Source: Myxococcota bacterium (GTDB taxonomy: Bacteria > Myxococcota_A > Bradymonadia > UBA7976 > UBA1532). Taken from it: DNA of 64,000 nt. Below, one piece after another: positions 2 through 47,512 of this stretch. Made by a program: the position numbers and the translations under genes. Location of the stretch: positions 52,493 through 116,492 of the forward strand of contig JAYZEG010000010.1 in NCBI GenBank assembly GCA_036337435.1, given 5' to 3'. Every line of letters starts with the position of its first letter. Position 1 is the first letter of the stretch. Under the pieces are notes generated by a model. That model saw only the letters and a program-made list of their open reading frames with translations. It was not told the origin of the DNA and ran no database searches.

Positions 2-1741
2 TCAATTATCAGCCCATTCAATACGGCGGGCGGCTGATACAATATCTGAAGGCAAAGCCGACCGATAGGCCTGGTCGAAGGCATCGGCCAATTGACCGGC
101 AGTCGAAAACCGGTCTACGGGATCGGGTGCCATGGCGATGCTCAGAAAATCGCTGATCTGCCCATCTAAATCCGGGGCTACGACCTGAGGGCGAGTTGGC
201 CTTTGATACGCTGCTGCCGCAACGGCATTAAAGCCAGACCCCTGGAAGGGCGGTGCGCCAGTCAAGCAGCGGTAGAGAACCGCACCCAGTGCATACAAAT
301 CTGTACGGTGATCTAGCTCGTGTCCTCGAGCCTGCTCAGGTGCCATATATCGGGGCGTTCCAACCACACAGCCGGCATGTGTCAATGTCTCGGCACCGGT
401 CGTCCACTTTGAAACACCAAAATCGAGTACCTTCCAAACATTTCGAGTACTGCTTTCTCGGTGCGCGAAAAGATTATGGGGTTTAATGTCCCGGTGGATA
501 ACGCCTTGTTCGTGTGCGGCCGTGAGCCCGCGGCAGATGTGATGTACGAGACGGTGACATGCCCGAACGGATAAGCGTCCGCGGCGCCTCAGAATCGCGG
601 CCAAGTCATGTCCGTCGAGACGCTCCATTGCGATATATAACGTTCCATCAGTGTCTTGACCAAATTCATACACTTGCGTCACATGTGGCGACCGGATCTG
701 GCGGGCAATTTGTGCCTCGCGCTTGAATCGAGACACGATGGCTTCATTCTGAGTGTCTGACGTGTTCAGAATTTTAAGTGCTGACCGTTTTCCGCTCTTT
801 TGCTCAACCGCGTCGTACACTTCACCAGATGCACCCCGCCCGAGTAAGGGACCTAGGCGGTAATCTGAAATTGACTGGCCTGTCAGGCGACCAGACAAGC
901 CCTCATCCCCGAAAATTCTTTCCAACTCAGCTTGGGCTTCTTCGAGCTGAACTTTTTTTAAATTGATGTCCATAACGGCACTTGCAACCGAGCCCATAGC
1001 ATTTTCAACCGCGTCCCGTGACCAAGTGGCCTGGGCAAAAGTGACGAGCAGAACCATGGGAACCATCAGGGTCATAAAGAGCATAGCCGATGCCCCCGCG
1101 TTGTTCCCGGTGAAAACGCCGATATCCTGGATTCGCCCTGTCAAGACACCAAGGAACAAAGCGAGGGTTAAAATAATGGCTGCAGAGCAAATGAGTACGG
1201 CGCCTCTTCGGTCAGCACCTTGCCCAAAAAAGCTGATACCGAGAGTGATGGCGAGCGCAGTTGGCGAATATGGCCCCAAATAAATAAGCGCGTTTACACA
1301 AGCAACGACACCCACGATTCCGAAAATCCGAAACACGTTGCGATCGTATTTTTTGGGATTCTTGGCAACCCTCCAAACACCCAGACCTGTCAGTGCGAAA
1401 ACGAAGAGGGTCGACGCAAAAATCAAGCTGTGTCCGCTGTGACCGGAATCTAAAAACGGCAGCCAAGCGAGTGTAACCAGACAAATCACACTGAATATGA
1501 GTCCGATATTGCTTGCACGGATCGCTTCAGCTTCATGCAAACTGAGCTGTATATGTGAAACGGTCACCGCTGATTCAGGGCGTCGATCAAGATTTGAATG
1601 ATCAACAGAAATTGGATTGGAGGGTGCGCGCTGGCCTGTTTGTATGGTGACGTCTTGTTCAATATGCCGAACCGCCCGGTCGGTCAGATTCTGAATTGAC
1701 TCGATTGGAAAACGAGCGTCGGGTTTTCTGGGCTCAGACAT
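2..1741 (-). CDS. Membrane-anchored Hanks-type Ser/Thr protein kinase (N-terminal multi-TM region, coiled coil, C-terminal kinase domain)
   Basis: Kinase motifs LGRGASGEVY, ALK, HRDIKPHN, DFG, GTPRYMAPE, DLYALG; about six hydrophobic segments upstream; ATG at 1741, stop at 2-4. Confidence 0.95.
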   Translation of the reverse strand: MSEPRKPDARFPIESIQNLTDRAVRHIEQDVTIQTGQRAPSNPISVDHSNLDRRPESAVTVSHIQLSLHEAEAIRASNIGLIFSVICLVTLAWLPFLDSGHSGHSLIFASTLFVFALTGLGVWRVAKNPKKYDRNVFRIFGIVGVVACVNALIYLGPYSPTALAITLGISFFGQGADRRGAVLICSAAIILTLALFLGVLTGRIQDIGVFTGNNAGASAMLFMTLMVPMVLLVTFAQATWSRDAVENAMGSVASAVMDINLKKVQLEEAQAELERIFGDEGLSGRLTGQSISDYRLGPLLGRGASGEVYDAVEQKSGKRSALKILNTSDTQNEAIVSRFKREAQIARQIRSPHVTQVYEFGQDTDGTLYIAMERLDGHDLAAILRRRGRLSVRACHRLVHHICRGLTAAHEQGVIHRDIKPHNLFAHRESSTRNVWKVLDFGVSKWTTGAETLTHAGCVVGTPRYMAPEQARGHELDHRTDLYALGAVLYRCLTGAPPFQGSGFNAVAAAAYQRPTRPQVVAPDLDGQISDFLSIAMAPDPVDRFSTAGQLADAFDQAYRSALPSDIVSAARRIEWADN

Positions 1742-2017
1742 CAACTGCGTCCAACATGGCTAGGTCTCGATTAGTCTAGCATGATCTTATCGTCTGCACC
1801 CATGTTCATTGGACATCCGACTCTATTCTAAACGGATAGCATCATCGGAATGTCACAGGTCAAACGTAGATGACTGACCGACGGGCTGACGCCTCAATTA
1901 TAACGCCCGATGAGGGCAATTAATGACTCGGTCTTTTGACCCCACTTGTGTGACCTACTGTCCACATTTATCGGTTCATGACGGCAAGGTTCACCTGAGC
2001 TTGGCCTCCCCGTAAAC

Positions 2018-2034
2018 TTGGCATGCGGCTTGCT
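2018..2034 (+). promoter_or_regulatory. Sigma-54 (-24/-12) promoter upstream of the hairpin array
   Basis: TTGGCATGCGGCTTGCT has GG-N10-GC spacing and is close to consensus TGGCAC-N5-TTGC; no credible + strand CDS follows; predicted start near 2045. Confidence 0.8.
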
Positions 2035-2152
2035 ATCTCATGGACGCAGGAAAGCAACTTGGGTCCAGAAGGAGGACCACCACGAGGGTCGATGCCGTGA
2101 CACGTACGTCAACGCATCGGACAAGAAATTCAGTCTCGGCCTACAAGCTATA

Positions 2153-2211
2153 GAGGTAGCGGGCATCACGTCCCCCATCCCCCCCAGTGGATGCTCGCTA
2201 CCCTCATTTTT
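2153..2211 (+). repeat. C-loop hairpin copy 1
   Basis: GGTAGCGGGCATC, loop ACGTCCCCCATCCCCCCCAGTG, GATGCTCGCTACC, then CTCATTTTT. Confidence 0.9.
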
Positions 2212-2275
2212 ACCAGGGTGCGTGACAGTCTGGTTGCTAAATGAGGGTGCTCAATAAGCGAGTCAGACAGGCTAA

Positions 2276-2335
2276 AGGTAGCGGGCATCACGCCCCCGTC
2301 CCCCCAACAGGATGCTCGCTACCTCTCATTTTTTT
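2276..2335 (+). repeat. C-loop hairpin copy 2
   Basis: GGTAGCGGGCATC, loop ACGCCCCCGTCCCCCCAACAG, GATGCTCGCTACC, then TCTCATTTTTTT. Confidence 0.9.
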
Positions 2336-2391
2336 CGGTAGGCAAGCCGTAAACCCATACGCGTTGCGGTTCTTGACATGACCTAAACTCT

Positions 2392-2444
2392 AGGCAGCGG
2401 GTATCCGTCTCCCCTCCGTCCCCCAAACAGGATACTCGCTGCCT
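2392..2444 (+). repeat. C-loop hairpin copy 3 (diverged, covarying)
   Basis: GGCAGCGGGTATC, loop CGTCTCCCCTCCGTCCCCCAAACAG, GATACTCGCTGCC. Confidence 0.9.
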
Positions 2445-2504
2445 CGCCTCACTTAAAACAAAGCAGCTACCAGGGACCAGACGGGTTGGTCAATACCCCC
2501 GAAA

Positions 2505-3686
2505 TTAAGAGAATAGCGACGACGAAAATGGGGGGATCAGCTTCATGGCAGTTGCCACAATGTACGCAGTCCAGAAAATGTACAAACTGCCGAGGAACCA
2601 GCCTCTTCCCTTACCAACGCTGACAGTTCGAGTCCCATCATCGGCGGTGCCTCGAGGCCCAGTCAGAAAGGTCAACAAGATAATGACGGTTGCGCCAACC
2701 AAGATAATTCGAAGGTCTTGAACTGCCGCCCCGCTTCCAGCTGTACCGCCCGTCAATGCGATCTCACTGCCGTTGTAGAGGCAGTAGGCCAGCAGGGGTA
2801 ATCCCAAGGCAACACAGATGTCGAAAATATTACTCCCAACAGCATTAGACACCGCATCGTCGTAATCTCCCTTCATCGCGTCTTTGTAGGAGATGACGGT
2901 ATCTGGAACGCTGGTTGCCGCAGCCCCCAGGATGACAGCAGTGAAGTATGCTGGTACACCGAGTGCGTCAGCGGAATGGATTACGGCCTCGGCTAAGAAA
3001 TAGCATGCACCGCCGATGGTTGCCGTGGCGCAAATCAGAACGACCCATGCGGAGCCTTTGGTAAACTCGTTGCCGCCATAAATCAGATTATTGTAATCGA
3101 AGGTAAGCAGATTGGCGACAAAGCCCTTATGCTCGTCCTCCTCATCATCATCATCATCGTCGTCGTCATCATCTCCCCCGCCCATGCCACGAAGGAGAAC
3201 GCCAAAGTAGACGACATAAATACCGATCAAAGCTGCACCCATCCACCAAGCCAATGCGGTGTTGCCGAGAAATACGATGAGTGCGACCTCAGCTAGGATG
3301 AAGAAGAATCCGTCTCGCAGAAGCGTACTCTGCCCCAAACTAACGCTGTTAATTACCTCGCCATTTACGCCTTTCGTGGTCACGGCAATAATGCAGACGG
3401 CTGGTATGACAGCTGCATTGAACACGGCACTGCCCGCGCATGTTGCGATACCAGCGGAGAAGCCATCGGTGTCGTGATAGAGAAAGAGCAGAAATAAGGT
3501 GGTGAACAATTCCGGTAGAGAACTTGCGATCGCTTCGATGGTCGCGCCTCGAATACCGGGCTTCATCTTATAGACTTTCTTCCCCAAATGGTCTGAAGCC
3601 CCCTCAAACGAATCGCAGGCGAACTTAATGACATACATCGCGGCACAAACCAGCCCTAAAGACTGCATGAGTTTCGTTACGTCCAA
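2505..3686 (-). CDS. Sodium/calcium exchanger (CaCA family, YrbG-like)
   Basis: Alpha repeats ASSLPEL...GSAVFN and ATSVPDT...GSNIFD; about 10 TM segments; central poly-Asp loop; RBS AAGGAG. Confidence 0.9.
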   Translation of the reverse strand: MDVTKLMQSLGLVCAAMYVIKFACDSFEGASDHLGKKVYKMKPGIRGATIEAIASSLPELFTTLFLLFLYHDTDGFSAGIATCAGSAVFNAAVIPAVCIIAVTTKGVNGEVINSVSLGQSTLLRDGFFFILAEVALIVFLGNTALAWWMGAALIGIYVVYFGVLLRGMGGGDDDDDDDDDDEEDEHKGFVANLLTFDYNNLIYGGNEFTKGSAWVVLICATATIGGACYFLAEAVIHSADALGVPAYFTAVILGAAATSVPDTVISYKDAMKGDYDDAVSNAVGSNIFDICVALGLPLLAYCLYNGSEIALTGGTAGSGAAVQDLRIILVGATVIILLTFLTGPRGTADDGTRTVSVGKGRGWFLGSLYIFWTAYIVATAMKLIPPFSSSLFS

Positions 3687-3853
3687 TTTATGCTTCTCCT
3701 TGAAATGAACGGAGGTATAGGCGAATCAAAAGTCATCTAGCCGGTCAACGCAATCTGAGTCGACCGGCTAAATCATGGCCCGTTAAATACCCGTCTGACA
3801 ACCCGATGCCGTATCGTGTTTGACGGCACGGCACCGGAGTCGTTTCCTCGGAC

Positions 3854-5632
3854 CTAATCGTCCAAGTTGTATTGGAAGAAATTATCCCATTTCTCGTCCA
3901 TGGCGCGAAGTGCTTCGTCCATTGGAACCGCCCAATATTGACCATTTTTGTGGGCCACGATGGGGAGAAACTTCCTCATACTATCCTGTTCTTCAGACGG
4001 CTTCGGTAGATTGTCCGCACCAGCATCGGCCGCGACGAGTTCCAAAGCACCGTCGACATCAAAATCGACCTCGAGGTCGTTGAAATTATCTTTGAGGAAA
4101 ACTTCGACAGCTTCGTCTAGATCTTCCGATGACATGGTTTTAGTCGGTTGCCCATTGGCACCGATAACAGCTTGGTTTTTGACAAGTAACAGATATGAGA
4201 GGAACGCTTCTTTAAATTCTTGTTCTTCAACCGAGTCGACCAAGAACTGCATCACGCCCATGTTACTGTCGAGATTTCGCTCGTAGAGGTCTTGCGCAAT
4301 CTTAGCGATGTATTTGACCCGTGTGCGTAAGAATCCAGTTACAGTCTTCAATAAGACCGCGACCATGATACCAATAAATGCGAGAAAACCACCGCCGCTG
4401 CCATCGTCTGAGCCGCCGGTTGCTTTGACAATACCTGTGATTAACGTCGCCAGAACAACGAGGCTTAACACCGTTTTGTCGAAAGGCCGCATCTTGAGTT
4501 TCTTCTCTGGGAAGACGACCTCAAGGTCAGCCATTGGAATGTTCTTGAAAATCTTGATGGAAATGGGCTTGACCGCCGGTTCCTCAGGCTTCTTGAACAT
4601 CTTATTGACCATGCCGCCCAAGAGCGGATTGGTTCGAAGTGCCCTAAATGGGTCTTTTGCCTTCAAGCGAAACAAACAAATGACACGCTCGAAAGCTGGT
4701 TCCTGCAGCGTTGTTTTGCCAACAAATGAACCCCAGTTGGTCAGCTGGTTCTCTAGATTCATTCGCCGCAACCAGCGGGGTAGAAATGCGACATCAATGT
4801 CTTTTCGTTCAGGTGCTTTATACTCTTCTTCAACAGCACCCAATTGCTCCTGCAGTTTCTTCGAGAAAGAGGCCACCAATCGAATCGCTAACTTGACGAC
4901 CCGCTCGACCAAGAGGTTCACCTTGCTTAAAAGAAAAGCACCCTCTACGCGTTCAGGTGTCTTACCCCGTGTAAAGATGAGCATTTGGTCTTTGGTATCT
5001 TCAGGCTGGTCGATCCACTCATTGAATGAACCTGCATCCGATGGAATACAGTCGGCCAACTGGGCTTTACCTTCAGCTGTTTCGGACCACGCCGAAAAAT
5101 CTCTAATGAGCTCGGGATCATGGCCTGTCCAGTTTGCATCAACCGGCATATCGAATACGAAGGTCGACGCATCGGCTAAGTCGTATTCTGGCTGGGTCAA
5201 TGGATTGAAGTTGCCGCGTTCCATCAACTTCATGAAATTGGACAGAAAACGGCGTTCCCGGTGCTGGATTTCTTCTTCGGACAGGGCAACGGCGACCGTC
5301 TCATCATCATCGTCGTCATCGTCTTCCACGACATCAGGAGAGAAAAATTCGTAATCTTCTTTGAGCTGGTTAAGCGTTTCGTGGAAATGAAAATGATAAA
5401 TCCCATCGAGCAATTCGACAAAGTGCTTAAATTTCTCGACCTCGTCCTCCGAGCGCGCGTAGTCGCCCTTAAAAGCGGCTACAACCTTGGCTTTGCTAAT
5501 CGGGATATACATTTCATGAGGGATCTCGACCCACTCACGATCTTCGCCAACCCCGCTGGGCGGCTCCTCTCCGCGCCAATAGGTCTCTCCCCATTTCTCC
5601 GGCTTAATCCAGACGTTTGCTTCATCACTCAC
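3854..5632 (-). CDS. DUF3754 / TMEM143-family membrane protein
   Basis: Signature IKIFKNIPMADLEVVFPEKK, two TM helices, then EEQEFKEAFLSY; GTG at 5632 follows GGGAGGAG. Confidence 0.8.
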   Translation of the reverse strand: MSDEANVWIKPEKWGETYWRGEEPPSGVGEDREWVEIPHEMYIPISKAKVVAAFKGDYARSEDEVEKFKHFVELLDGIYHFHFHETLNQLKEDYEFFSPDVVEDDDDDDDETVAVALSEEEIQHRERRFLSNFMKLMERGNFNPLTQPEYDLADASTFVFDMPVDANWTGHDPELIRDFSAWSETAEGKAQLADCIPSDAGSFNEWIDQPEDTKDQMLIFTRGKTPERVEGAFLLSKVNLLVERVVKLAIRLVASFSKKLQEQLGAVEEEYKAPERKDIDVAFLPRWLRRMNLENQLTNWGSFVGKTTLQEPAFERVICLFRLKAKDPFRALRTNPLLGGMVNKMFKKPEEPAVKPISIKIFKNIPMADLEVVFPEKKLKMRPFDKTVLSLVVLATLITGIVKATGGSDDGSGGGFLAFIGIMVAVLLKTVTGFLRTRVKYIAKIAQDLYERNLDSNMGVMQFLVDSVEEQEFKEAFLSYLLLVKNQAVIGANGQPTKTMSSEDLDEAVEVFLKDNFNDLEVDFDVDGALELVAADAGADNLPKPSEEQDSMRKFLPIVAHKNGQYWAVPMDEALRAMDEKWDNFFQYNLDD

Positions 5633-5986
5633 GTCAAAAAACTCCTCCCAACACATCAGCCTTTGCCGACGGTCGATCCAATGGTTTTGTTGTCATCATG
5701 AAAGGCGGGCCACAGTGAATTATATATCAAAAACAATCTAGGCTGGGACCCATTCCCCATCCGTTACTGGGCGCAGTCTAAGTCGTTCCATGCCCATTTG
5801 CCAAGTAAATAGAAATAACAGAATCTGGCCCGTTGAAAGATCCGTAAAAAGACAAATGTTGTTCCGTATGCAGCGGCATCAATGTGCCGATTTTATGGGC
5901 TTTTAGAGAGATTAAGACGGAAAATCCTAATGCAAATCTCGGCAATGCGTTCGAAAAACCCGGTTTATTATACCCATTAAAGACTC

Positions 5987-47495: not shown

Positions 47496-47512
47496 AGCAA
47501 AGGATATGCCAA
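47496..47512 (-). promoter_or_regulatory. Sigma-54 promoter
   Basis: Minus strand TTGGCATATCCTTTGCT; AT-rich tract upstream; inverted repeat ACCCGA-N7-TCGGGT at 47612-47630. Confidence 0.75.

What the first reader, a model, noticed from the sequence alone, without database searches (positions are those of the whole stretch)
2018..2450. Sigma-54-driven tandem array of C-rich-loop hairpin RNAs: candidate undescribed sRNA system
Seen: the 760-bp gap between the kinase and the Ca exchanger holds a near-consensus sigma-54 promoter (TTGGCATGCGGCTTGCT, 2018-2034) with no credible CDS behind it. Three copies of a 13-bp stem follow (2155-2202, 2277-2323, 2393-2443). Copy 3 differs from copies 1 and 2 at four stem positions, which form two compensatory pairs (T-A to C-G, C-G to T-A). 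All copies keep one G-U pair that would be an A-C mismatch on the other strand. Each loop has two C-runs, and copies 1 and 2 end in U-tracts. Established: Myxococcus Pxr is a sigma-54-dependent stem-loop sRNA with, as I recall, a functionally critical C-run and tandem paralogues in some Cystobacterineae; alphaproteobacterial cuckoo/CcsR sRNAs are tandem arrays with C-rich anti-SD loops. Inference: this is a processed polycistronic regulatory sRNA, either a distant Pxr relative or a new family.
Basis: partly seen in the sequence, partly recalled or inferred. Interest (0 to 1): 0.9.

Follow-up and report, generated by a model that had tools for sequence, protein, structure and literature searches.

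The report
Sigma-54-driven C-loop small RNA array
This is a real, uncatalogued regulatory RNA gene of uncultured marine myxobacteria, in which one sigma-54 promoter drives three copies of a hairpin whose cytosine-rich loop probably pairs with guanine-rich sites on messenger RNAs.

Summary
The promoter, the three hairpins, the two compensatory pairs and the strand-specific G-U pair are all at the stated coordinates.

- **Not a dispersed repeat.** The source genome holds only these three copies.
- **Part of a wider RNA family.** It occurs in one family-level lineage of uncultured Myxococcota. GC-rich genera carry one or two single-hairpin units, each with its own sigma-54 promoter. They always lie between the genes for diphosphomevalonate decarboxylase and aminopeptidase P, and their loop reads CCCCUCCCUCCU.
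- **Derived form in the window's genus.** One promoter, a 100-120 nt leader, and 2, 3 or at least 4 tandem hairpins.
- **Structure supported.** Across 27 units, 11 of 13 stem pairs show double changes.
- **No Rfam match,** Pxr and CcsR1 included.

The most likely mechanism is a trans-acting sRNA that pairs its C-rich loops with G-rich or Shine-Dalgarno sites. This is inferred: I confirmed no target, and expression evidence is weak.

It is a new family of a known kind. The scan noted a sigma-54 C-loop sRNA in marine myxobacteria before, on another genome (e1-5075868). I did not check whether it is the same family.

The parts
1926..1956 (+). Upstream activator (enhancer) site candidate, 62-92 nt upstream of the -24 element. 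It contains TTGACCCCACTTGTGTGACCT.
   Evidence: 30 of 31 positions are identical in the syntenic gap of same-genus G002, while the flanks diverge. A similar GTGACCCCACCCCTGTGAC lies between the activator gene and the promoter in G001. TGTGTGAC-like and TGGCACA motifs lie upstream of units in GC-rich genera. The 21-mer is unique in the source genome at up to 4 mismatches. Its function is inferred.
2018..2034 (+). Sigma-54 promoter: -24 GG at 2020-2021 and -12 GC at 2032-2033. The predicted start of transcription is near 2045.
   Evidence: The sequence is, and the rarity of the pattern. It is conserved at the same place in G002 (TTGGCATACAGCTTGCT) and G001 (CTGGCACAGAGATTGCT). 17 of 17 units in GC-rich relatives have TGGCAY-N5-NTG at a fixed distance, 15 of them with GC at -12. 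The start site is inferred from the usual sigma-54 geometry.
2045..2154 (+). Leader of about 110 nt, poorly conserved.
   Evidence: The alignment with G002 shows little identity here. Leaders of about 100-120 nt are also present in G002 and G001, but absent in GC-rich genera, where the hairpin begins about 12-14 nt after the -12 element.
2155..2202 (+). Hairpin 1: 13-bp stem, loop ACGUCCCCCAUCCCCCCCAGUG.
   Evidence: The covariance model scores 74.6 bits on + against 28.1 on -.
2197..2250 (+). Spacer stem-loop that pairs the U-tract after hairpin 1 (CCCUCAUUUU) with AAAUGAGGG.
   Evidence: Inverted repeat I6. It folds at -27.4 kcal/mol, z -4.68, with 0 of 200 shuffles as stable. It is partly kept in G002, by eye only.
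2276..2324 (+). Hairpin 2: 14-bp stem, loop ACGCCCCCGUCCCCCCAACAG, followed by UCUCAUUUUUUU.
   Evidence: The model scores 79.6 bits on + against 23.4 on -.
2392..2444 (+). Hairpin 3: 15-bp stem with two compensatory pairs, loop GUCUCCCCUCCGUCCCCCAAACA. It contains the anti-Shine-Dalgarno core CCUCC.
   Evidence: The model scores 75.9 bits on + against 21.5 on -.
2445..2540 (+). 3' region with an undefined end. No canonical terminator was found.
   Evidence: The terminator scan finds none on +. One metatranscriptome contig spans 2348-2540, but a contig shows neither strand nor an RNA end.

Best explanation
The gap holds a gene for a non-coding regulatory RNA. A sigma-54 promoter depends on an enhancer-binding activator bound at the conserved site about 60-90 nt upstream. 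It drives one + strand transcript of roughly 400 nt or more: a leader, then three copies of a stable hairpin, with at least one structured spacer.

Each hairpin displays a 21-25 nt loop with two cytosine runs (core CCCCC-GU/AU-CCCCC; hairpin 3 also carries CCUCC). The hairpin is the working module. In sister genera the same module is made singly, straight from its own sigma-54 promoter, with the loop CCCCUCCCUCCU. That loop contains the CCUCCU core, which I recall as the 16S anti-Shine-Dalgarno sequence.

The loops most likely act as seeds that pair with G-rich stretches, chiefly ribosome-binding sites, of particular mRNAs. That would block translation or change mRNA decay when the activator's unknown signal is present. 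Tandem multiplication in this genus raises the number of seeds per transcript and lets loops diverge. The modules may be cut apart, as in NrsZ.

Shown: promoter, structure, strand, conservation and family.
Inferred: activator dependence, transcript ends, processing, pairing mechanism and targets.
For: Real RNA on the + strand:
- The stems keep pairing through wobble pairs that would be A-C on the other strand.
- On 27 units, 92.1% of cells pair and 11 of 13 pairs show changes on both sides. 0 of 500 shuffles reach any of the five measures, and slid controls give 30.6-63.4% paired.
- The model scores 74.6-79.6 bits on + against 21.5-28.1 on -.

Not a repeat:
- The source genome holds 3 exact-pattern copies and no others.
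- The covariance model finds only the three sites.

Promoter:
- It is conserved in G002 and G001 with varied N5 spacers.
- In 17 of 17 GC-rich units it sits at a fixed 30-32 nt from the loop motif.
- In G001 a sigma-54 activator gene with the GAFTGA motif and a Sigma54_activat domain (E 2.5e-52) lies directly upstream on the same strand.
- The source genome encodes at least 15 such activators.

The loop is the best-kept part:
- In G004 the stem sequence is entirely different, but the loop CCCCUCCCUCC stays.
- That pattern is expected of a pairing seed.

The design works this way elsewhere:
- The 6C sRNA 'binds multiple mRNA targets via C-rich loops' (PMC6486639, title and start of the abstract in a search listing).
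- Cuckoo RNAs carry CCUCCUCCC loops read as anti-Shine-Dalgarno (PMC4615179, passages).
- NrsZ is a sigma-54/NtrC-driven RNA of three repeated stem-loops with stem-loop spacers, processed into modules (PMC4253122, passages).

The organism uses Shine-Dalgarno sites: G is enriched at -14 to -8 before crudely called starts.

Weak expression hint:
- Two metatranscriptome runs each hold one contig on the array only: 2143-2305 at depth 9 and 2348-2540 at depth 5.9.
- Neither covers the flanking genes.
Against: No target was confirmed.
- Duplex energies of the three loops with 3016 translation-initiation regions are no better than with internal gene segments: 519 against 507 at -18 kcal/mol or lower.
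- The motif GGGGRYGGGG occurs at 25 places in the genome (both strands searched). Two of them are the array's own loops read on the other strand, and only one lies at a ribosome-binding site, that of uppP/bacA.
- That G-rich site is not kept in any of 5 relatives.

Two of the three loops in the window lack CCUCC, so they cannot pair with a canonical GGAGG.

Expression, strand, ends and processing are not shown. The RNA evidence is contigs from runs chosen because they hold this stretch, and DNA carry-over is possible.

No orthologue of the G001 activator was found in the source assembly, which is 87% complete. The activator for this copy is therefore unidentified.

The alignment used for covariation was fitted to the model, which favours pairing.
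Confidence: 0.6

Rival explanations
1. Protein sponge. The repeated, near-identical C-run loops are docking sites that titrate an unknown RNA-binding protein specific for cytosine runs. This would work as CsrB/RsmZ do for CsrA with repeated GGA loops, under sigma-54 control.
For: - Multiplication of one loop motif on one transcript (2, 3 and at least 4 copies in three genomes of the genus) is the hallmark of titrating RNAs. This rests on established knowledge of CsrB/RsmZ, which I recall.
- The loop core CCGUCCCCC is kept in most copies in the genus, and the core CCCUCCCUCC in the GC-rich genera.
- The whole genus has switched from one core to the other. That fits co-evolution with one partner better than with many mRNAs.
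- No mRNA target was found.
Against: - Most genera make a single hairpin per transcript, which is a poor sponge.
- I know of no bacterial global regulator that binds C-runs (recalled, not searched).
- The loop in GC-rich genera contains the CCUCCU core that I recall as the anti-Shine-Dalgarno sequence, which points to RNA pairing.
- A CsrA site is excluded. GGA occurs only at the loop/3'-arm junction, where it is paired, and it is missing in G001 copies and in G002 copy 1.
Confidence: 0.15
2. Divergent Pxr. The array is the orthologue, in this lineage, of the Myxococcus developmental sRNA Pxr.
For: - Same phylum.
- Sigma-54 promoter with an upstream enhancer site.
- In G001 it lies directly downstream of an enhancer-binding-protein gene, as pxr lies downstream of pxrR (PMC5684412, passages).
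- Tandem paralogues, each with its own sigma-54 promoter, exist in Cystobacter (PMC5568312, passages), as in G043, G021 and G010 here.
Against: - The Rfam Pxr model RF01812 (109 positions, gathering score 80 bits) gives no match at E <= 10 on the region, none at E <= 1 on L005, L013 and L015, and none at E <= 0.001 in the source genome.
- Pxr has three stem-loops, while the unit here is one hairpin.
- The G001 activator has no receiver domain that Pfam can see, whereas PxrR is described as an NtrC-like response regulator.
- Pxr is reported as restricted to Cystobacterineae (PMC5568312 passage citing Chen et al.).
- I could not fetch a genuine Pxr locus for direct comparison. The model rang in 0 of 151 genomes of the phylum sample and in no control genome.
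Confidence: 0.05
3. Cis-acting element of the neighbouring genes. It would be a set of terminators or an antisense RNA for the convergent Na/Ca exchanger gene (or, in GC-rich genera, for the pepP-mvd transcript).
For: - The exchanger gene converges on the array in G000, G002 and G001.
- One RNA contig runs from hairpin 3 into the exchanger's 3' end (2348-2540).
- In GC-rich genera the unit lies antisense in the pepP-mvd gap in 13 of 13 loci examined.
Against: - The neighbours differ between the genus and the rest of the family, while promoter and hairpin stay.
- In the source genome pepP and mvd abut without a gap and without the RNA.
- G003 has no match to either of the window's two flanking genes beside its copy.
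- A dedicated sigma-54 promoter and a conserved loop are not needed for a terminator.
- The wobble pairs fit the + strand only.
Confidence: 0.05
4. DNA-level repeat (a REP/MITE-like element or a protein-binding palindrome) with no RNA function.
For: It consists of tandem direct repeats containing inverted repeats.
Against: - There are only three copies in 4.38 Mb, all here.
- The stems show strand-specific G-U and U-G pairs and compensatory changes.
- A conserved sigma-54 promoter lies in front of the units in every genome where the 5' side is assembled: G000, G002, G001 and 17 of 17 GC-rich units.
Confidence: 0.02

Closest known systems
NrsZ of Pseudomonas aeruginosa (PMC4253122; abstract and passages read)
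   Same: - It is transcribed from a sigma-54 promoter with an enhancer-binding activator.
- The primary transcript carries three repeated stem-loops that show the same loop motif.
- The stem-loops are separated by spacers that are themselves stem-loops; compare spacer 2197-2250 here.
- The repeated loop is the functional seed.
   Different: - The NrsZ loop motif is ACAGGCAG, not C-runs.
- It belongs to gammaproteobacteria.
- It lies after ntrC and answers to nitrogen.
- Its processing and its target (rhlA) were shown experimentally. Here processing, signal and targets are unknown.
- No Rfam family matched the region. I did not check that an NrsZ model is in Rfam 15.
Cuckoo / CcsR RNAs of Alphaproteobacteria (Rfam CcsR1 RF02791; PMC4615179, passages)
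   Same: - There are 2-4 adjacent hairpins with variable stems, each showing one C/U-rich anti-Shine-Dalgarno-like loop motif.
- Copy number varies between genomes.
- The loop of the GC-rich relatives (CCCCUCCCUCCU) is nearly the cuckoo motif (CCUCCUCCC).
   Different: - The CcsR1 model does not match the hairpins. Its only hit is E 2.3, 13.7 bits against a gathering score of 65.3, on the minus strand at 2514-2598.
- Cuckoo RNAs use an RpoHI/HII promoter and are co-transcribed with a small protein gene. Here there is a sigma-54 promoter and no CDS.
- The phylum is different.
- The loops in the window are C-runs split by GU or AU, not CCUCCUCCC.
6C sRNA of Actinobacteria (PMC6486639; title and start of the abstract seen in a search listing; the lead came from earlier scan notes)
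   Same: Hairpin loops carry runs of cytosines that pair with G-rich mRNA sites without a chaperone. This is the nearest analogue for the C-run loops of the window.
   Different: - No Rfam match to the region at E <= 10.
- 6C has two hairpins in one small RNA (recalled).
- It belongs to Actinobacteria.
- It is not sigma-54 dependent, as far as I recall.
Pxr of Myxococcus / Cystobacterineae (Rfam RF01812; PMC5684412 and PMC5568312, passages)
   Same: - Myxobacterial sRNA.
- Sigma-54 promoter with an enhancer site.
- An activator gene lies directly upstream (as in G001 only).
- Tandem paralogues with their own promoters occur in some genera.
   Different: - Pxr has a three-stem-loop architecture.
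- The Pxr model gives no match.
- The activator has a different domain make-up.
- The lineage is different.

Membership tests
Pxr (Rfam RF01812) | Match to the family covariance model (gathering score 80 bits) | tested here: not met
   There is no match at E <= 10 on window 1700-2600, none at gathering score in the whole window, none at E <= 1 on L005, L013 and L015, and none at E <= 0.001 in the source genome. The genome-wide tool had no positive control: it rang in 0 of 151 phylum genomes and in 0 of 14 controls. The direct cmscan calls do not depend on that.
Pxr (Rfam RF01812) | Three stem-loops SL1-SL3 in about 100 nt, with conserved SL1/SL2 and an 8-bp SL3 core (PMC5684412) | tested here: not met
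   The repeated unit is a single 13-15 bp hairpin with a long loop.
Pxr (Rfam RF01812) | Sigma-54 promoter with an upstream enhancer-binding region | tested here: met
Pxr (Rfam RF01812) | Located directly downstream of the NtrC-like response regulator gene pxrR | tested here: inconclusive
   In G001 a sigma-54 activator gene lies directly upstream, but Pfam sees no receiver domain in it. In the window and in G002 the upstream gene is a divergent Ser/Thr kinase. In GC-rich genera it is mvd.
Cuckoo / CcsR (RF02791) | 2-4 adjacent hairpins, each with the loop motif CCUCCUCCC | tested here: not met
   The adjacent hairpins are present, but the loops read CCCCCAUCCCCCCC, CCCCCGUCCCCCC and CCCCUCCGUCCCCC. 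Relatives have CCCCUCCCUCCU. The CcsR1 model does not hit the hairpins.
Cuckoo / CcsR (RF02791) | RpoHI/HII-type promoter and co-transcription with a small upstream protein gene; alphaproteobacterial range | tested here: not met
   The promoter is of the sigma-54 type and there is no conserved ORF. The relatives are Myxococcota MAGs.
6C sRNA | Match to the Rfam 6C model; two hairpins with six or more C in each loop; Actinobacteria | tested here: not met
   No Rfam family matched the hairpins at E <= 10. The C-run loops are present. The accession and architecture are recalled or taken from earlier notes, and I did not verify that the model is in the library.
NrsZ-type modular sigma-54 sRNA | Sigma-54 promoter, three repeated stem-loops with one loop motif, stem-loop spacers | tested here: met
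   This is a resemblance of design only.
NrsZ-type modular sigma-54 sRNA | Loop motif ACAGGCAG, position after ntrC, processing into about 40-60 nt modules | tested here: not met
   The loop motif and the neighbours differ. Processing cannot be tested with contigs.
REP / dispersed repeat | Many copies scattered over the genome | tested here: not met
   There are 3 copies, all in this gap.
Sigma-54-dependent gene | GG-N10-GC promoter conserved in relatives, plus activators encoded in the genome | tested here: met
   promoter; at least 15 activator genes in the source genome. Dependence itself cannot be tested here.

The most novel reading that the evidence does not exclude
The hairpins are not pairing seeds. 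They are docking sites for a still unknown regulator that reads cytosine runs, for example a KH/S1-type protein or the C-preferring termination factor Rho. The array would then be a sigma-54-switched protein sponge: a CsrB-like layer built on a different protein, with the switch of loop motif between genera tracking that protein.
Probability: 0.12. Interest if true: 0.85.

Novelty: new member of a known kind. Interest (0 to 1): 0.5.

Why it matters
Regulatory RNAs of Myxococcota are almost unknown beyond Pxr, and this lineage has no cultured member among the records found.

The family offers a clean, dedicated circuit. One enhancer site is unique in the genome, and one sigma-54 promoter drives one RNA module. 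Its evolution can be read directly. The module appears:
- singly, with its own promoter;
- duplicated, with each copy keeping its own promoter;
- multiplied behind one promoter after a move to a new locus.

This makes it a natural case for studying how modular sRNAs like NrsZ or the cuckoo RNAs arise.

It also adds a covariance model that would annotate an otherwise empty intergenic region in many marine and freshwater MAGs. Its biological role (signal and targets) is open.

Tried and rejected
**Wrong accession.** I guessed RF01811 for Pxr. It is PtaRNA1, so one phylum search was wasted. RF01812 is Pxr.

**No positive control for Pxr.** The Pxr model over 151 genomes of the phylum sample rang nowhere, and not in the 14 control genomes. 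I therefore could not fetch a true Pxr locus for side-by-side comparison.

**Metagenome scan.** The scan with GCGGGYRT-N-CCRTCCCCC-N-CGCTRCC returned 74 loci. The model accepted three hits in two of them.
- L144 is a G002-like locus with 2 copies and is the only true member.
- L109 lies in a coding region by reading.
- The other 72 are chance.

**False model hits.** I read these as false: G012 (coding region) and G188, G198 and G121 of family f6 (plain hairpins without C-rich loops). G015b I left undecided.

**Target searches.**
- There is no enrichment at translation starts.
- uppP/bacA was the single ribosome-binding-site match of GGGGRYGGGG, but the site is absent in G002, G001, G003, G021 and G011.
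- A 42-aa ORF after another site was dropped.
- Gene calls here were crude: longest ORFs of at least 100 aa, first start codon.

**Link to mvd.** In the source genome pepP and mvd abut with no G-rich site.

**Cognate activator.**
- The G001 activator has full-length orthologues (54% identity) only in G021, G043 and G011.
- Its N-terminal 140 residues and C-terminal 75 residues find nothing convincing in the source genome.
- Its N-terminal domain has no Pfam match at E <= 1.
- It shows no similarity to the kinase next to the array.

**CsrA-sponge idea.** ACAGGAUG in copies 2 and 3 resembles the CsrA site as I recall it. However, the GGA is paired in the stem and is not conserved.

**Leader peptide.** The short ORFs in the leaders of G000 and G002 differ.

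**Sequencing runs.**
- Of 24 runs listed, 20 hold part of the stretch and 2 are RNA.
- The uncovered flanks in the RNA runs are not evidence of silence.
- Run X7, of unknown library type, holds a 346-nt contig on 2113-2457 only.

**Literature searches for an earlier description.**
- 'sigma54-dependent' / 'small RNA' / 'Myxococcota' (216 papers hold at least two terms, 12 listed, none on this RNA).
- 'Bradymonadales' + 'sRNA' (0 papers).
- 'Pxr' + 'Rfam' + 'myxobacteria' (0 papers).
- 'Pxr sRNA' + 'Rfam' (1 paper, unrelated).
Full report
**Observation.** The 760-bp gap (1745-2504) lies between a Ser/Thr kinase gene (2-1744, minus; Pkinase E 6.9e-48) and a Na/Ca exchanger gene (2505-3686, minus; Na_Ca_ex E 8.3e-30). 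It holds TTGGCATGCGGCTTGCT at 2018-2034. The strict pattern TGGCAY-N5-TTGCW occurs twice in the 64-kb window against 0.20 expected, and 20 times in the 4.38-Mb genome. Three hairpins follow, at 2155-2202, 2276-2324 and 2392-2444. They are spaced 121 and 120 nt apart.

Copy 3 differs from copies 1 and 2 by two compensatory pairs, and all three keep one G-U pair. Each hairpin is far more stable than shuffled sequence on the + strand (z -4.9, -5.2, -7.2) and less so on the minus strand (z -0.85, -3.2, -3.75).

**Not a dispersed repeat.** An exact structured pattern finds 3 copies in the source genome, all here, and none of its backwards control. A covariance model built from five hairpins (R1) finds only these three places. 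It scores 74.6-79.6 bits on + and 21.5-28.1 bits on the reverse strand of the same places.

**The same gene in the genus.**
- G002 has the same gap between the same two genes. Its promoter is conserved (TTGGCATACAGCTTGCT). A 31-nt block upstream of the promoter is identical at 30 positions. Two hairpins carry further changes that all keep pairing on the + strand: G-U to G-C or A-U, A-U to G-C, and three new U-G or G-U pairs.
- G001 has a sigma-54 activator gene of 434 aa, with a GAFTGA motif and Sigma54_activat at E 2.5e-52. It is followed on the same strand by GTGACCCCACCCCTGTGAC, the promoter CTGGCACAGAGATTGCT, a leader of about 100 nt, and at least 4 hairpins every 105-106 nt. The array runs into a contig end. 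The exchanger gene follows on the contig that appears to overlap.
- G003 has one copy at a contig edge with a different stem sequence and two + strand wobble pairs. The locus has no match to either of the window's two flanking genes.
- A metagenome scan added only one further true locus of 74 returned.

**A wider family.** A second model (R2) was run over the 113 genomes held for the class. It hit 13 of 27 other genomes of the source's family, and 3 of 43 genomes of another family. Reading those three shows plain hairpins without C-rich loops, so I count them as false. The true hits, and 14 loci from an exact-pattern scan of 185,579 species genomes, share one design:
- TGGCAY-N5-NTG(C);
- about 12-14 nt further on, a 13-16 bp hairpin (CGCCGGCCUCCNGG ... 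CCNGGAGGCCGGCG);
- the loop CCCCUCCCUCCU;
- then a run of 6-8 C.

All 14 record titles are MAGs, labelled Myxococcales, Myxococcota, Nannocystaceae, Bradymonadia or simply bacterium. The promoter element is present in 17 of 17 units at 30-32 nt from the loop motif, and 15 of those have GC at -12. G021, G043 and G010 have two units in tandem, each with its own promoter.

In 13 of 13 loci examined (of the 14; L054 was left out as a shorter copy of L015), the unit lies between a divergent diphosphomevalonate decarboxylase gene and a convergent aminopeptidase P gene. Walking that gap in five genomes the model had missed gave mixed results:
- G006 has a normal unit.
- G004 has a diverged unit with a wholly different stem, the same CCCCUCCCUCC loop and a classical U-tract terminator.
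- G018, G007 and G009 have nothing.

The model count therefore understates the spread. In the source genome pepP and mvd abut with no gap. In this genus the RNA gene sits at a different locus and has been multiplied behind one promoter.

**Structure statistics.** On 27 model-aligned units, 92.1% of 330 cells form standard pairs, against 75.1% in shuffles and 30.6-63.4% when partners are slid. 11 of 13 pairs show changes on both sides, and 46 cells carry such a change. 0 of 500 shuffles reach any measure. The alignment was fitted to the model, which favours pairing. The hand-readable examples above do not depend on it.

**Control region.** The block 1926-1956 sits where an enhancer-binding protein would bind. 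Its 21-nt core is unique in the source genome at up to 4 mismatches, which suggests a dedicated activator-RNA pair. Related motifs (TGTGTGAC, TGTGCCA/TGGCACA) precede the units of other genera.

The G001 activator has full-length orthologues (54% identity) in G021, G043 and G011 only. None was found in the 87%-complete source assembly. Its N-terminal 140 residues match no Pfam family. The signal is therefore unknown, and the activator for the window's copy is unidentified.

**Expression.** Of 24 public runs listed, 2 are metatranscriptomes. Each holds one contig on the array only: X8 at 2143-2305 (1 difference, depth 9) and X20 at 2348-2540 (2 differences, depth 5.9). Nothing covers 1200-2142 or 2541-3400, while a DNA run has five short contigs scattered from 1594 to 2754. 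Contigs show neither strand nor ends, the runs were chosen for holding this stretch, and DNA carry-over is possible. This is a hint and no more.

**Mechanism.** In the family at large the loop contains CCUCCU, which I recall as the core of the 16S anti-Shine-Dalgarno sequence. It is the most conserved part, even where the stem is replaced. That is the signature of a pairing seed aimed at G-rich ribosome-binding sites, as in cuckoo/CcsR RNAs and 6C.

In the window's genus the loops became C-runs split by GU or AU. By my reading, each array still has at least one loop with CCUCC: hairpin 3 here, copy 1 in G002, copies 2 onward in G001, and the G003 copy. The layout of repeated stem-loops with a structured spacer (2197-2250, -27.4 kcal/mol) behind a sigma-54 promoter is that of NrsZ, whose modules are cut apart and act singly.

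I could not confirm a target:
- There is no enrichment at translation starts.
- The one ribosome-binding-site match of GGGGRYGGGG, at uppP/bacA, is not conserved.

The pairing model is therefore the best-supported inference, not a result. A protein-sponge reading stays open.

**Comparison with known families.** Rfam 15 gives no match at gathering score anywhere in the window. At E <= 10 in 1700-2600 there are only two chance-level hits outside the hairpins, on the minus strand: CcsR1 at 13.7 bits and XIST A repeat at 13.2 bits. On three relatives' loci the only hit at E <= 1 is an unrelated chance-level one, a trypanosomatid snoRNA model at E 0.27 on L015, away from the hairpins.

Pxr (RF01812) shares the phylum, the sigma-54 promoter, the enhancer site, the activator neighbour (G001 only) and tandem paralogues. 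It does not share sequence, model match or architecture. I file the element as a new family of the known class of C-rich-loop sRNAs. It has an NrsZ-like modular, sigma-54-driven layout.

**Prior description.** Four literature searches found no description of it. Only the open library was searched, and the supplements of the Pxr papers were not read. Earlier notes of this scan report a sigma-54-driven C-loop sRNA in uncultured marine myxobacteria on another genome (e1-5075868). I did not test whether it is this family.

**Limits.**
- All genomes are MAGs.
- Gene calls for the target scan were crude.
- There are no raw reads, and no genuine Pxr sequence was available for comparison.
- The taxon name rests on record titles of relatives and on earlier notes.

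Noticed in passing
window 47496-47511 (minus strand): This is the only other strict sigma-54 consensus in the window (TGGCATATCCTTTGCT). I did not look at what it drives.
   Followed up: no
window 2-1744 (minus strand): The Ser/Thr kinase next to the array has a 295-residue N-terminal part with no Pfam match at E <= 0.05. In G000 and G002 the kinase gene occupies the upstream side, where G001 has the sigma-54 activator gene instead.
   Followed up: partly
L168 (G004:C72), about 355-440 nt upstream of mvd: This is a diverged family member. It has the promoter TGGCACACAGCATGC and the hairpin CCCGGUGUCUGG-CCCCUCCCUCC-ACCAGAUGCCGGG, followed by a classical U7 terminator. The stem is replaced and the loop kept.
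   Followed up: partly
L064 (G001:C110) 2805-5372: Two adjacent SPFH/Band 7 genes lie divergent from the sigma-54 activator gene that precedes the RNA array in G001.
   Followed up: no
window 2113-2457: A small public run of unknown library type (X7) holds a single 346-nt contig that covers just the three-hairpin array. It has 7 differences and 2 gaps. All 4 listed base differences and both one-base deletions lie outside the stems: five in the linkers and one in the loop of hairpin 2.
   Followed up: no
window 3854-5656 (minus strand): A 600-residue protein with a DUF3754 domain lies two genes downstream of the array.
   Followed up: no
L040 (G003:C125) 79-130: After the single G003 hairpin comes a second, apparently unpaired run, CCCCCCCCCCCUCCUCAC. 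It recalls the C-run tail of the GC-rich units.
   Followed up: no
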